Assembly (NCBI RefSeq): GCF_009914755.1
Contig: NC_060925.1
DNA length: 64,000 nt
Reading direction: 5' to 3' (one strand)
Origin: the human T2T-CHM13v2.0 reference genome, Homo sapiens
The notes below the pieces were generated by a model that had not been told where the DNA came from, did not search any database, and was given only the letters and a program-made list of their open reading frames with translations. This document shows positions 12,801 to 15,800 of the stretch, piece by piece. How positions within the stretch are numbered: the stretch's first letter is position 1; every line of letters starts with the position of its first letter. Made by a program: the position numbers and the translations under genes.

Positions 12801-15800
12801 ACAGGAATATCACCCCTATCTGGAAGACCAGGTGGAGGCTTATCACCTTCATAGTAAGGTACTCACTGTCCACGTCAAGAGCCAAGCCAAGGTACTGTTC
12901 CTCCAATGAGTAAACAGCACTTCTGTAGGGCTGGCCTAAGTCAGGCAGTTCAAGATAACCTGAAGGAGTCGAATAACATCTATCCAGGGAGTCCTGCAAG
13001 ACTTCAGGCTCTTTCTCATCCAGCAGCTCCCTGCTGAGCCTGGAAAAGTAGGAAAAAGTAAAGAATAAGCCAGGGGGAATCAGAAACCACACAGCCCCAG
13101 CTACATTTCATGGCTAACATAAGGAACTGTTTAAACAGAAAAAGGACAGATCCATTAGTGAGGTAATGAATTATTGCCTTTATGTTGGGATAGACCAGGG
13201 CCAGGTAGAAAAGAATGAAAGAGAAAGACAGGGAGAGGGAGAGGGAGAGAGAGACAGAGGAGAAAGTGAGCTCAGCGAATTGGCCGGGTGACACACTGAT
13301 GAAGGGGTCAAAGGACACTCTGAGTTAGTGCCCTCGGGACACACAGAGAACAGTGATCATGAAAAGAGTGGGCTCAATAATTTTCCATAAACTTGCTTAA
13401 GATTCCATGCAGTTGCCATACAGCCTTTGAGGTATGGTCAACCTACAGTAAGTTAGTAAATGATAAGGGGAGGAAGAAATGGAAACCTAAACATCTACTG
13501 CAAGGAAAACCAACAGCAATGTCAGTAGGAGTAATTCAACCTTCGTTGAGAACATGAAATTGAACATACTCTTGTTTTCCCTGGACCTGGCATCTCCAGG
13601 TGTCAACACAGAATTAAGCATCCATAATTGCTCAAAGTTACCTGGGGCATGATGGGTCTTGGTCTTCTTCCACTTCTTGGTACTTTTCAATTTCTGCAAT
13701 AAGTTCAGACATGGACAGACATATTAAGCTGGTTCTCCTACACACATAACAATCCACTGTCTAATCCTCACACAGGGACTTCAGGCTCCTCAGCATGAGA
13801 ATAGGACACTGTGAGAGATCTTCTTCAGGAGGCCTGAAGGCTGATCATGATAGAGATTCCTGGGTTTTTGTCCCAGAAACTGTGGGTAAAATTCCCTATT
13901 CTGGTAGATCGTTATCCCAAGATCATTTGTCCCAAGTTTGTGCAAATGGTTATGCCATATTTTTCCAATCGATTTAAAGCAAATGTCCCCAAATGGTTGC
14001 TGGGAGAAAAACTGCAATATTCAGCCCTGTCTCATCAAATACTCAGATTCTTCATGGTAGCGAGGATTTTAGACGCTGAAATTAGAGTGAAGGATGAAAT
14101 CTACAAGATCTACAAAATTGAGACAAAATCAGAGTTGTGTGAATTTGTCACATCTGCTCAGATCCAACATCTTGAGAGTAGGATTAGGGTGCCACAGGCA
14201 TGGCCTGAGACTAGGAAGAGAGCCCTGCTCACTGACCCATCCCTTGCCTGGGCTTCCAAGTGGAACTAGAGTTTCATTCAACCTACATGTGCCTATAGGT
14301 CCTCCCTGTGGCAATGACATCTCTCAGCTCAGTAAGGGCCATTTGCAGTAGGAATATGACCCTAACCAGAAGACTCAGTGGATCCTTATCACCTTCATAG
14401 AAAGGTACTCACCATCCATGTCAAGAGCCCAGCCAACACGCTGTTGCTCCAATATGTAAAAGGCACTTCTGTAGTGCTGGAATGAGTCAGGTAGTTCAAA
14501 GAACATTGACGGAGTCGAATAACATCTATCCAGTGAGTCCTGCAAGATTTCAGGCTCTTCCACTTCCATCAGCACACCGCTGAGCCTGGAAAAGCAGACA
14601 AAACTAAAGAAGCAGTCAGGGAAAATCAGACACCACAGAGCCCCAGTAGATTTCAGAAGTAACATAAGGAAGTGGTAAGAAAAGAAAAGGATAGATCCAT
14701 TAATGAGGTAACAAATTATTGCCTTTATGTTGGGATAGAAAAGGGCCAGGTAGAAAACAATGAAAGAGAAAGACAGAGAGACAGAGACAGAGACAGAGAC
14801 AGAGAGAAAATGAGCTAGTGAATTGGCCAGGTGACATACTGGTAAGGGAGTAAAAGGACACTCTGAGTTAGTGCCCTCATGACACACAGCAAACTGCGAT
14901 CATGAAAAGAGTGAGCTCAATAGTTTTCCATAAAATATGCTCAAAATTCGATGCAGTGGCCACGAGAGTACAGCTTTTGAAGTATGGTCATCCTATGGTA
15001 CGTTAGTAAATGATAAGGGGAGGAAGAAATGGAAACCTAAACATCTCCTGCAATGAAAACCAACAGCAATGACAGTAGGAGTAATTCAGCCTTCGTTGAA
15101 AACATGAAATCAAACACACTCTGGTTTCCCTGAATCTGTTGCCTCCAGGTGTTAACACAGAATTAAGCATCCACAATTGCTGAAAGTTACCTGGGGCATG
15201 GTGGGTTTTGATCTTCTTCCCCTTCTTTTCTTCCCCTTCTCCTTCTTTTCTTCGTTGATCTTCTTCCCCTTCTTTTCTTCCCCTTCCCCTTCTTTTCAAT
15301 TTCTGCAATAAATTCAGACATGGACAGACACATTAAGCTGATTCCCCTACACACATAACAATCCACTGTCTAATCCTCACACAGGGACCTCAGGCTCCTC
15401 AGCATAAGAATAGGAGACTGTGAGAGATATATTTCAGGAGGCCTGAAGGCTGGTCATGATAGAAATTCCTCGGTTTTTCTCCCAGAAACTGTGGGTAAAA
15501 TGTCCCTATTCTAGTAGATCGTTATCCCAATATCATTTGTCCCGAGTTTGTGCAAACAGTTATGCCATATTTTTCCAATCAATTTAAAGCAAACACCCTC
15601 AAATGATTTCTAGGAGAAAAACTGCAATATTTAGCCCTGTCTCATCAAATACTCAGATTGTTCATGGTTGTGAGGACTTTAGACACTGAAATTAGAGTGA
15701 AAAAGGAAATCTACCAACCCTTGAGTCAAAATCATAGTTCTCTGAATTTGTCACATCTGCCCAGGTCCAATGTCATGAGAGTAGAATCAGAGTGCCACAG

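What the first reader, a model, noticed from the sequence alone, without database searches (positions are those of the whole stretch)
14413..14585. Chimeric CON3/HLS1 Olduvai exon with an 11-bp crossover window
Exon 43 begins as CON3 ([14 protein letters not shown]...[10 protein letters not shown]), with a CON3-type upstream intron and acceptor (ctggaaaagcagac on +). It ends as HLS1 ([17 protein letters not shown]) with a working gtgagt donor. The switch lies in the shared 11-mer cacttctgtag at 14464-14474. Inference: unequal crossover between the terminal CON3 exon and HLS1 turned a terminal domain into an internal, in-frame hybrid domain that fits none of the six standard subtypes, adding one triplet in the same event.
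Basis: partly seen in the sequence, partly recalled or inferred. Interest (0 to 1): 0.78.

Follow-up and report, generated by a model that had tools for sequence, protein, structure and literature searches.

The report
Chimeric CON3/HLS1 Olduvai exon in NBPF1
In the complete human genome, one repeat exon of the brain-linked gene NBPF1 is a clean join of two different Olduvai domain types, made when neighbouring repeats recombined; it is real but unannotated, and is a small new example of a process already proposed for this gene family.

Summary
Window 14413-14585 (- strand) is a 173-nt Olduvai long exon. Its first 111 nt, plus at least 107 nt of upstream intron, are CON3-type. Its last 51 nt, plus more than 1 kb downstream, are HLS1-type. 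There is one switch, inside the 11-nt identity at 14464-14474.

Both splice sites copy annotated sites, and the frame stays open through an intact but unannotated fifth triplet. The junction is unique in T2T-CHM13. No CON3 copy in the assembly matches its CON3-type part exactly (best 98%), so it is not a mis-join. It lies inside a 20.4-kb CHM13 insertion relative to GRCh38 (PMC10320979). None of the 33 RefSeq models uses it.

The origin is out-of-register homologous recombination between the terminal CON3 unit and an HLS1 unit. The upstream flank is mosaic, and the CON3-type tract looks older than the split between the two 1p36 arrays.

This is the same kind of event proposed for the origin of expanded triplets, but with an exonic breakpoint instead of an intronic one. 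Expression is untested.

The parts
14413..14585 (-). Chimeric 173-nt Olduvai long exon (CON3 5' part, HLS1 3' part). It is not in any RefSeq model on this assembly.
   Evidence: Pfam Olduvai PF06758 scores 74.7 bits against a cut-off of 23. No RefSeq exon is listed here in the hub's gene table.
14464..14474 (-). 11-nt identity (CTACAGAAGTG on the - strand) within which the CON3-to-HLS1 switch lies.
   Evidence: The last CON3-type site is 14475 and the first HLS1-type site is 14463. It is only the 6th longest CON3/HLS1-E identity run in 14413-14740.
14475..14692 (-). Continuous CON3-type stretch: exon nt 1-111 plus the last 107 nt of the upstream intron, including the acceptor.
   Evidence: 45 of 48 diagnostic columns are CON3-type. 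Identity is 214 of 218 to this gene's CON3 and 172 of 219 to HLS1a. Private changes at 14616 and 14646; ancestral A at 14506.
14712..14716 (-). Island of HLS1-E/canonical-type sequence (TTTGTT instead of the CON3 T-run) inside the CON3-type flank. Its bounds are 14693-14721.
   Evidence: Alignment block; site table.
14722..14810 (-). Upstream intron carrying three alleles (14722 G, 14741 T, 14810 T) that the hybrid shares with the CON3 unit and not with the HLS1-E units. This extends the CON3-derived stretch to at least 336 bp.
15191..15302 (-). Annotated 112-nt small exon (the extended CON3/HLS1-E type, basic-residue rich). Its donor would splice to the hybrid's acceptor 605 nt downstream.
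   Evidence: Hub gene table; splice sites and frame.
10468..13693 (-). Five unannotated exons that complete the fifth triplet: 13642-13693 (52 nt), 12867-13039 (173), 12106-12157 (52), 11294-11466 (173), 10468-10579 (112).
   Evidence: Each is 100% identical to the annotated exon one period upstream. All have AG/GT sites and the frame is open.
9623..9866 (-). Coding part of the terminal CON3 exon, the CON3 parent type of the chimera.
   Evidence: (90.06% to the hybrid).
19126..19298 (-). Nearest ordinary HLS1 long exon (HLS1a), the HLS1 parent type. Identical copies lie at 23850-24022, 28556-28728 and 33264-33436.
   Evidence: (89.08% each).

Best explanation
The exon is a genuine product of out-of-register homologous recombination within the NBPF1 triplet array.

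When the array pairs one 4.7-kb unit out of register, the terminal CON3 doublet lies opposite an HLS1-E doublet. The two partners are about 99% identical across the 112-nt small exon and most of the intron. The identity runs there are 232, 223, 68 and 52 nt. From about 14740 downstream the two sequences diverge. Exchange begun in the identical part ran into the diverged part and ended in the 11-nt identity inside the long exon.

I put it at about 0.45, against about 0.40 for a non-crossover conversion tract. The confidence given for this entry (0.45) is for the crossover version. That the exon is real and arose by CON3 x HLS1 homologous recombination of one kind or the other I put at about 0.85-0.9.

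Shown:
- The chimera itself, with its single switch.
- Its uniqueness in the assembly.
- Intact splice sites and an open frame.
- Its CON3-type tract nests within the local (1p36) CON3 copies.

Inferred:
- How the recombination was resolved (crossover or conversion).
- The timing.
- That the exon is spliced in (I estimate about 0.7). Inclusion would give a 1949-2194 aa protein in place of the annotated 1704 aa. That protein would carry one domain that is CON3 for about two thirds of its length and HLS1 for the last third.
For: - Single clean switch: 20 of 22 CON3-type sites, then 17 of 17 HLS1-type, then 569 of 572 HLS1-type downstream.
- The 5' tract nests inside the CON3 clade (100/100) and inside the 1p36 subclade (94/97). 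The 3' 51 nt are identical to all four HLS1 copies.
- Both units flanking the hybrid (V1, V0) carry the 'terminal-unit' alleles also found in the last unit of the paralogous 9-triplet array (alignment columns 2322, 2353, 3335, 3472). They also share one allele (column 2227) found only in this array.
- The junction 36-mer occurs once in 3.1 Gb, at 0 mismatches and at up to 1 mismatch.
- No CON3 copy in the assembly is identical to the tract: 98% for the paralogous array's CON3, 96% for this gene's own, 95% or less for the rest. It has private substitutions. It therefore cannot be a mis-join of existing copies.
- CHM13 has five triplets here. GRCh38 lacks 20.4 kb at this spot (PMC10320979, Table 1 passage). 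Copy number at this locus therefore does change.
- Long identity runs exist upstream.
- Splice sites and frame.
Against: Against the crossover version:
- A crossover predicts that the hybrid's upstream flank equals the CON3 unit's upstream flank. It does so at 14722, 14741 and 14810, but not at 14712-14716, 15043 or 15096.
- V1 and V0 differ at 17 positions in 4.7 kb. The terminal units of the two paralogous arrays differ at 8, and array flanks differ by 0.2%.
- Seven of those 17 differences fall in the last 370 columns.
- V1's body is closest to V2 (5 events). V2 is also terminal-type but has an ordinary HLS1 junction, so terminal units can be copied without making a hybrid.
- The tract lacks three derived alleles shared by the CON3 copies of both arrays (14506, 15043, 15096). 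Yet the second array has no hybrid.

Against use as an exon:
- None of the 33 RefSeq models includes it (hub table).
- I saw no transcript or peptide data.
Confidence: 0.45

Rival explanations
1. Non-crossover gene conversion. Five triplets already existed. A tract of CON3-unit sequence was copied into the last HLS1-E unit. Its 3' end lies in the 11-mer and its 5' end lies between 14811 and 15042, giving a length of 336-568 bp. Patchy repair left the T-run island unconverted. No triplet was added by this event.
For: - The HLS1-E-type island at 14712-14716 lies inside the CON3-type stretch.
- Alleles at 15043 and 15096 are HLS1-E-type or ancestral.
- V1's body is nearest to V2 (5 against 10 events).
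- The small-exon/intron part of the local HLS1-E units tracks the local CON3 flank: 3-7 differences, against 13-15 to the 1q21 HLS1-E units. This points to repeated local exchange between these two partners.
- The tract length is ordinary for human conversion (my own knowledge, not from a call).
Against: - It needs two earlier ordinary unit gains to explain three terminal-type units.
- V1 has A at alignment column 3613 where V2 has G.
- The donor allele at 14506 is not that of either present CON3 copy.
- The copied strand would have had to re-anneal in sequence only 79% identical (172 of 219).
Confidence: 0.4
2. The hybrid is old. It is a surviving early junction from the birth of the 1p36 triplet arrays, formed before the two arrays (this gene and the 9-triplet paralogue 160 kb away) were duplicated, and later lost from the paralogue. 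This concerns the age of the event and is compatible with either crossover or conversion.
For: - Tree topology (P3,(hybrid,(A1 CON3, A2 CON3))) with support 90/85 and 85/78.
- Three derived alleles are shared by both CON3 copies and absent from the hybrid.
- The tract differs from the nearest CON3 by 6 substitutions in 846 bp, against 0.2% array-flank divergence.
- The single-triplet paralogue P3 has no HLS1-E unit.
Against: - The 9-triplet array shows no trace of a hybrid.
- Alignment column 2227 is shared only by this array's last three units.
- Exchange between the two arrays' CON3 regions would mimic the pattern.
- Tree support is moderate and rests on few sites.
Confidence: 0.25
3. Replication-based template switching (FoSTeS/MMBIR) using the 11-nt microhomology, rather than homologous recombination.
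For: - The switch lies in a short identity, and the flanks on the 3' side are only 48-79% identical.
- The 31-nt identity at 14517-14547 was not used.
Against: - The two partners are in the same register of a tandem repeat.
- Hundreds of nt of about 99% identity lie immediately upstream.
- There are no inserted or templated extra bases at the junction.
- A mosaic flank is more typical of heteroduplex repair (my own knowledge).
Confidence: 0.05
4. Assembly artefact: a chimeric consensus of CON3 and HLS1 reads in a 24-kb tandem array.
For: - The sequence is absent from GRCh38 (PMC10320979 Table 1).
- It is absent from all RefSeq models (hub table).
- The junction occurs only once.
Against: - The CON3-type part differs from every CON3 copy in the assembly (best 98%).
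- It carries private bases and an ancestral allele, which a mis-join of existing copies could not produce.
- The unit lengths and all exons around it are regular.
Confidence: 0.02
5. The sequence is real but is not used as an exon. The RefSeq path from 15191 to 9866 is what the cell makes, and the last triplet is skipped or the transcript is degraded.
For: - None of the 33 RefSeq models uses any exon between 9867 and 15190 (hub table).
- NBPF1 is listed among gene models 'Not verified' by Iso-Seq in PMC13639854 (table passage).
Against: - The acceptor side is 98 of 100 identical to the annotated CON3 acceptor, and it lies 4.7 kb closer to the donor.
- The donor side is 200 of 200 identical to the annotated HLS1a donor intron.
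- The same models also skip a second, wholly ordinary triplet at 20731-24740. That pattern looks like a 3-triplet template laid onto a 5-triplet gene.
Confidence: 0.3

Closest known systems
Expanded Olduvai triplet / HLS1-E (Heft et al. 2020, Genetics 214:179). That paper was not held. I saw it only as described in passages of PMC9313022, bioRxiv 10.1101/2021.07.06.450945 and PMC11675761.
   Same: - Recombination between the terminal CON3 doublet and HLS1.
- It puts the long, G-rich, furin-site-bearing CON3 small exon in front of an internal domain.
- The repeat unit is 4.7 kb.
   Different: - The published breakpoint is intronic. In this window the ordinary HLS1-E units switch at 14717-14739, as do three 1q21 units, so their long exon is pure HLS1.
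- Here the CON3-type sequence runs a further 240 nt or so, and the switch is inside the long exon. The encoded domain is therefore itself chimeric.
'Hybrid' DUF1220 domains of Astling et al. 2017 (PMC5556342, passages seen): 6 of 302 domains in hg38.
   Same: Domains that fit no single clade because they combine parts of two.
   Different: - Those are defined as the short exon of one clade combined with the long exon of another.
- Here the long exon itself is split.
- Their list (.bed and .aln supplements) could not be read, so overlap cannot be excluded. This sequence, however, lies in a segment reported as missing from hg38.
'NBPFA1' five-copy 3mer HOR array of T2T-CHM13 (Gluncic et al. 2023, PMC10475015, section 14 read; and 2024, PMC11675761)
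   Same: It matches this window's five-triplet array in copy number. It is paired with a nine-copy array, and I find one at chr1:16.158-16.201 Mb. Both are reported as absent from hg38.
   Different: Those papers describe copy number at the level of 1.6-kb monomers. In the passages I read they do not mention a chimeric monomer or exon, and they treat the array as a new gene rather than as NBPF1.
Anti-Lepore-type haemoglobin genes and red/green opsin hybrids (recalled from my own knowledge, not from any call)
   Same: An in-frame hybrid coding unit left between duplicated neighbours by unequal exchange between diverged tandem paralogues.
   Different: Those involve whole genes with a known function and phenotype. 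Here the unit is one exon of a repeat domain whose function is unknown.

Membership tests
Olduvai (DUF1220/NBPF) domain, Pfam PF06758 | Profile match above the curated cut-off | tested here: met
   74.7 bits against a cut-off of 23, profile positions 15-68 of 68. The CON3 exon scores 75.0 and the HLS1 exon 77.1.
Olduvai (DUF1220/NBPF) domain, Pfam PF06758 | Encoded by a small-exon plus large-exon doublet in a conserved phase | tested here: met
   112-nt exon 15191-15302 plus 173-nt exon 14413-14585, AG/GT at all sites, 285 nt = 95 codons, frame open. The doublet rule is as stated in PMC9313022.
CON3 subtype | CON3-type sequence over the whole long exon, which is the terminal exon and runs on to the stop codon | tested here: not met
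   The last 51 nt are 17 of 17 HLS1-type, and the exon ends at a GT donor rather than running on.
HLS1 subtype (HLS1-E form) | HLS1-type long exon preceded by HLS1-type intron 3' end | tested here: not met
   Exon nt 1-111 have 20 of 22 CON3-type sites, and intron 14586-14692 has 25 of 26.
HLS1 subtype (HLS1-E form) | Extended (about 110-nt) small exon shared with CON3 | tested here: met
   15191-15302 is 112 nt and 100% identical to the small exon before CON3 at 10468-10579.
Heft-type expanded-triplet junction | CON3-to-HLS1 switch in the intron between the small and large exons | tested here: not met
   The ordinary units here and three 1q21 units switch between 14740 and 14716. The hybrid stays CON3-type down to 14475, except for the island at 14712-14716.
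Unequal-crossover (duplication) product | Single switch between two paralogues in register | tested here: met
Unequal-crossover (duplication) product | The units on both sides of the junction are copies of one parent unit, and the upstream flank equals the flank of the CON3 parent | tested here: inconclusive
   Both units are terminal-type, but they differ at 17 positions. The flank agrees with the CON3 unit at 3 informative places and disagrees at 3.
Unequal-crossover (duplication) product | The junction goes with a +1 copy number across haplotypes; a reciprocal deletion allele exists | not testable with these tools
   Only one human assembly is held. The reciprocal junction was not searched because it would have meant typing a joined sequence.
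Gene-conversion tract | Two switch points enclosing donor sequence in an otherwise recipient-type unit | tested here: inconclusive
   The 3' switch is sharp (14464-14474). The 5' limit falls between 14811 and 15042, but it rests on two sites that may simply be later mutations in the CON3 lineage.

The most novel reading that the evidence does not exclude
The hybrid is not a private oddity of CHM13. It is an old, expressed seventh kind of Olduvai domain and the surviving early junction of a separate, local birth of triplet arrays at 1p36. If so, CON3 x HLS1 recombination has seeded triplet expansion more than once in the human lineage, and after furin cleavage the last NBPF1 triplet peptide would begin with a CON3-like head.
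Probability: 0.12. Interest if true: 0.65.

Novelty: new variant of a known kind. Interest (0 to 1): 0.42.

Why it matters
Olduvai copy number is the largest human-specific coding expansion. The published idea for how it began is a CON3 x HLS1 recombination. That idea is inferred from one intronic breakpoint shared by all expanded triplets.

A second, independent CON3/HLS1 junction would show that this exchange recurs. This one has a different, exonic breakpoint and lies in an array that exists only in the complete assembly. It would also give a natural marker for following gain and loss of triplets at 1p36 across human haplotypes.

It exposes an annotation gap as well. On T2T-CHM13 the NBPF1 model omits 12 intact exons (490 codons), including this one. 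Read-depth or proteomic work that uses the six-subtype scheme would misassign it.

Its functional weight is unknown, because the function of Olduvai domains is itself unknown.

Tried and rejected
- Heft et al. 2020 could not be read by DOI or by PMC id. Its breakpoint analysis is known to me only second-hand, and it may describe other hybrid forms.
- The only readable supplement of Astling 2017 was the Pfam seed alignment. The .bed and .aln files that list the hg38 hybrid domains could not be read.
- Five literature searches found no description of a chimeric long exon. The phrase search returned 0 papers. PMC13028154, PMC12882164 and PMC13639854 added nothing on it.
- My first choice of 1q21 comparison units (L005, L030, L031) turned out not to be HLS1-E units: 14 of 51 differences from HLS1 in the exon 3' part. 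I dropped them and replaced them with L032-L034.
- The idea that the switch used the best available microhomology is rejected. The 11-mer ranks 6th, and a 31-nt identity 43 nt upstream was not used.
- An interlocus donor elsewhere in the genome is rejected for this assembly. Among the 40 scored of 275 candidates, the best non-self match to the tract is 98%.
- I did not search for the reciprocal HLS1/CON3 junction, because that would have meant typing a joined sequence.
- I ran no structure or complex prediction. The domain is described as intrinsically disordered in the preprint passage, and a fold would not bear on the question.
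Full report
WHAT IS THERE

The window is part of NBPF1 on the - strand. A blastn of 14413-14585 against the window gives 16 hits with a period of about 1.57 kb:
- itself at 100%;
- the terminal CON3 exon (9696-9866) at 90.06%;
- four HLS1 long exons (19126, 23850, 28556, 33264) at 89.08%;
- five exons at 82.56% and five at 79.53%. By their order these are the HLS2 and HLS3 positions; those subtype names are the field's convention and I assign them by position.

So the gene in this assembly has five triplets plus CON3. 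The 'HLS1 position' of the last triplet is occupied by the exon in question. The RefSeq model on this assembly has three triplets. It jumps from 15191 to 9866 and from 25455 to 20016 (hub table).

THE OBSERVATION

I aligned the exon with 1 kb upstream and 1.2 kb downstream to the same span around CON3 and around HLS1a, and scored only columns where those two differ.
- Exon nt 1-111: 20 CON3-type, 1 HLS1-type, 1 neither.
- Exon nt 123-173: 17 of 17 HLS1-type.
- The 11 nt at 14464-14474: no informative site.
- Intron 14586-14692: 25 CON3-type, 1 other.
- 1,027 nt downstream: 569 HLS1-type, 1 CON3-type, 2 neither.

The two exceptions in the 5' part (14511, 14506) disappear when eleven CON3 copies from the whole assembly are compared. 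At both sites the hybrid carries the common CON3 base and this gene's CON3 carries a derived one. The switch is therefore single and clean. The chance of such a partition is 1.3e-10. A maximum-likelihood tree puts the 5' tract inside the CON3 clade (100/100), and the 3' 51 nt are identical to all four HLS1 copies.

IS IT A USABLE EXON?

- The acceptor context is the CON3 one: 98 of 100 identical to the annotated acceptor at 9866.
- The first 200 nt of the downstream intron are 200 of 200 identical to those after the annotated HLS1a exon.
- The five following exons of the unit (13642-13693, 12867-13039, 12106-12157, 11294-11466, 10468-10579) are each 100% identical to annotated exons one period upstream, and all have AG/GT sites.
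- Reading 16189 through all these exons to the stop at 9623 gives one open frame of 421 codons.
- Adding the last unit to the annotated CDS gives 1949 aa. Adding the other skipped unit (20731-24740, also intact) gives 2194 aa, against 1704 aa annotated. There are no internal stops.
- The exon's translation matches Pfam Olduvai as well as its parents do: 74.7 bits, against 75.0 and 77.1.
- Use in mRNA is therefore likely but inferred. I had no transcript data. PMC13639854 lists NBPF1 among models 'Not verified' by Iso-Seq (table passage).

IS IT REAL?

- The 36-nt junction occurs once in the 3.1-Gb assembly, at 0 mismatches and at up to 1 mismatch, with 0 matches for the reversed control.
- The 356-nt CON3-type tract has no identical copy. 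The paralogous array's CON3 is 98%, this gene's own CON3 96%, a third 1p36 copy 95%, and the rest 95% or less, among 40 scored of 275 candidates.
- It has private bases at 14616 and 14646.
- A consensus wrongly stitched from existing copies could not look like this.
- The exon lies inside CHM13 chr1:16007445-16027869 (window 11445-31869). Yang et al. list this as a 20.4-kb insertion in NBPF1 relative to hg38 (PMC10320979, Table 1 passage).
- Gluncic et al. report a five-copy and a nine-copy triplet array on T2T chr1p that hg38 lacks (PMC10475015 section 14).
- That explains why the exon has no annotation history.

CONTEXT FROM THE REST OF THE GENOME

Three related 1p36 genes were fetched:
- A1, this window: five triplets.
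- A2, chr1:16.158-16.201 Mb: nine triplets and no hybrid.
- P3, 16.649-16.654 Mb: one triplet.

Flanks of A1 and A2 differ by 0.2%. Flanks of A1 and P3 differ by 0.4-1.0%.

All ordinary internal HLS1 units here are of the 'expanded' kind: a 112-nt small exon and CON3-like intron, switching to HLS1-like intron between 14740 and 14716. Three 1q21 units switch in the same interval. According to passages in PMC9313022, the furin preprint and PMC11675761, this is the intron breakpoint that Heft et al. 2020 attributed to CON3 x HLS1 recombination. The hybrid is a second junction between the same two partners, about 250 nt further downstream and inside the coding exon.

HOW IT AROSE

With the array paired one unit out of register, CON3 lies opposite HLS1. 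Upstream of 14740 the partners share identity runs of 232, 223, 68 and 52 nt. Downstream the runs are at most 31 nt, and beyond the exon the sequences are unrelated (48% identity). An exchange started in the identical part and ended in the exon fits this layout. The 11-mer is only the sixth longest identity run, so it was not chosen for being the best microhomology.

CROSSOVER OR CONVERSION?

I cut the arrays into units in the register of the junction.

For a crossover:
- The units on both sides of the hybrid (V1, V0) carry the alleles that mark the terminal unit in A2 as well (columns 2322, 2353, 3335, 3472), plus one allele private to A1 (column 2227).
- The hybrid carries the CON3-unit alleles at 14722, 14741 and 14810.

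Against a crossover:
- A third unit, V2, is also terminal-type but ends in an ordinary HLS1.
- V1 is closer to V2 (5 events in 4,350 columns) than to V0 (10 events).
- V1 and V0 differ at 17 positions overall, against 8 between the terminal units of A1 and A2.
- Seven of those 17 lie in the last 370 columns.
- The flank has an HLS1-E-type island (TTTGTT in place of the T-run) at 14712-14716.
- The flank has non-CON3-unit alleles at 15043 and 15096.

A conversion tract of 336-568 bp with patchy repair explains the flank more simply. A crossover explains the unit content more simply. I put them at about 0.45 and 0.40.

AGE

- The tract shares derived bases with the A1 and A2 CON3 copies (14548, 14741) that P3 lacks.
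- It lacks three derived bases that A1 and A2 CON3 share (14506, 15043, 15096).
- The tree gives (P3,(hybrid,(A1,A2))) with moderate support of 90/85 and 85/78.

There are three possible readings. The event may predate the A1/A2 duplication, with the hybrid later lost from A2. The two CON3 regions may have exchanged sequence since. Or the donor may be an allele not present in this genome. I cannot choose between them. In each case the hybrid is not a fresh mutation of this cell line, so it should be found in other people.

COMPARISON WITH WHAT IS KNOWN

- It works like the proposed origin of expanded triplets, but it fails the defining feature of that junction, which is an intronic switch.
- It fails both the CON3 and the HLS1 subtype definitions.
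- It meets the Olduvai domain definition.
- Astling et al. mention 6 of 302 'hybrid' domains in hg38, defined as a short exon of one clade with a long exon of another (passages). That is a different construction. I could not read their list.
- Five searches of the held literature found no description of a chimeric long exon. The key paper itself was not available to me.

VERDICT

This is a real, well-defined and so far unannotated chimeric exon. The proposed mechanism is right in kind but unproven in its particulars. It is a new variant of a known process and of moderate interest. It is mainly useful as a marker of recurrent CON3 x HLS1 exchange and as a pointer to an annotation gap in T2T NBPF1.

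Noticed in passing
window 20731-24740 and 10468-14585: The RefSeq NBPF1 model on T2T-CHM13 skips two complete triplets. That is 12 exons, all with AG/GT sites, and all but the hybrid are 99-100% identical to annotated exons. Full inclusion gives 2194 aa against the annotated 1704 aa. The model has 3 triplets, the assembly has 5, and GRCh38 lacks 20.4 kb here.
   Followed up: partly
window 14716-14740, 19429-19453 and equivalents; L032-L034: The ordinary HLS1-E units of the 1p36 arrays switch from CON3-like to HLS1-like intron in the same interval (14717-14739) as three 1q21 HLS1-E units. Yet both halves are closest to the local CON3 flank and the local canonical HLS1: 3-7 differences against 13-15 in the 580-nt small-exon part. 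Either the expanded triplet arose again locally at 1p36, or each locus homogenises these parts with its own CON3 unit.
   Followed up: partly
L010-L015 (G000:C1:16154001-16214000): The paralogous array has nine triplets plus CON3. Some units are identical over 4.7 kb (V7 = V5, 0 differences; V8 against V6, 2 differences), which points to very recent unit gains.
   Followed up: no
L022 (G000:C1:120477531-120480887): The CON3 unit of this 1p12 NBPF copy has an HLS1-type patch in its upstream intron, covering the equivalents of 14689-14716 and including TTTGTT instead of the T-run. It sits at the same place as the island in the hybrid, so short-patch exchange at this T-run seems to recur.
   Followed up: no
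window 14475-14845: Differences between the hybrid's unit and the terminal unit are concentrated here: 7 events in 370 columns, against 10 in the other 4,350. They include two private substitutions in the hybrid (14616, 14646). This could reflect an older age, an unsampled donor, or error-prone repair synthesis.
   Followed up: partly
alignment columns 2750-2769 of the 4.7-kb units (about window 16,430 in unit V1, with equivalents in every unit): A (GT)n microsatellite differs in length between units and does not follow the unit groupings. V2 and V0 share the longest form and V1 has a shorter one.
   Followed up: no
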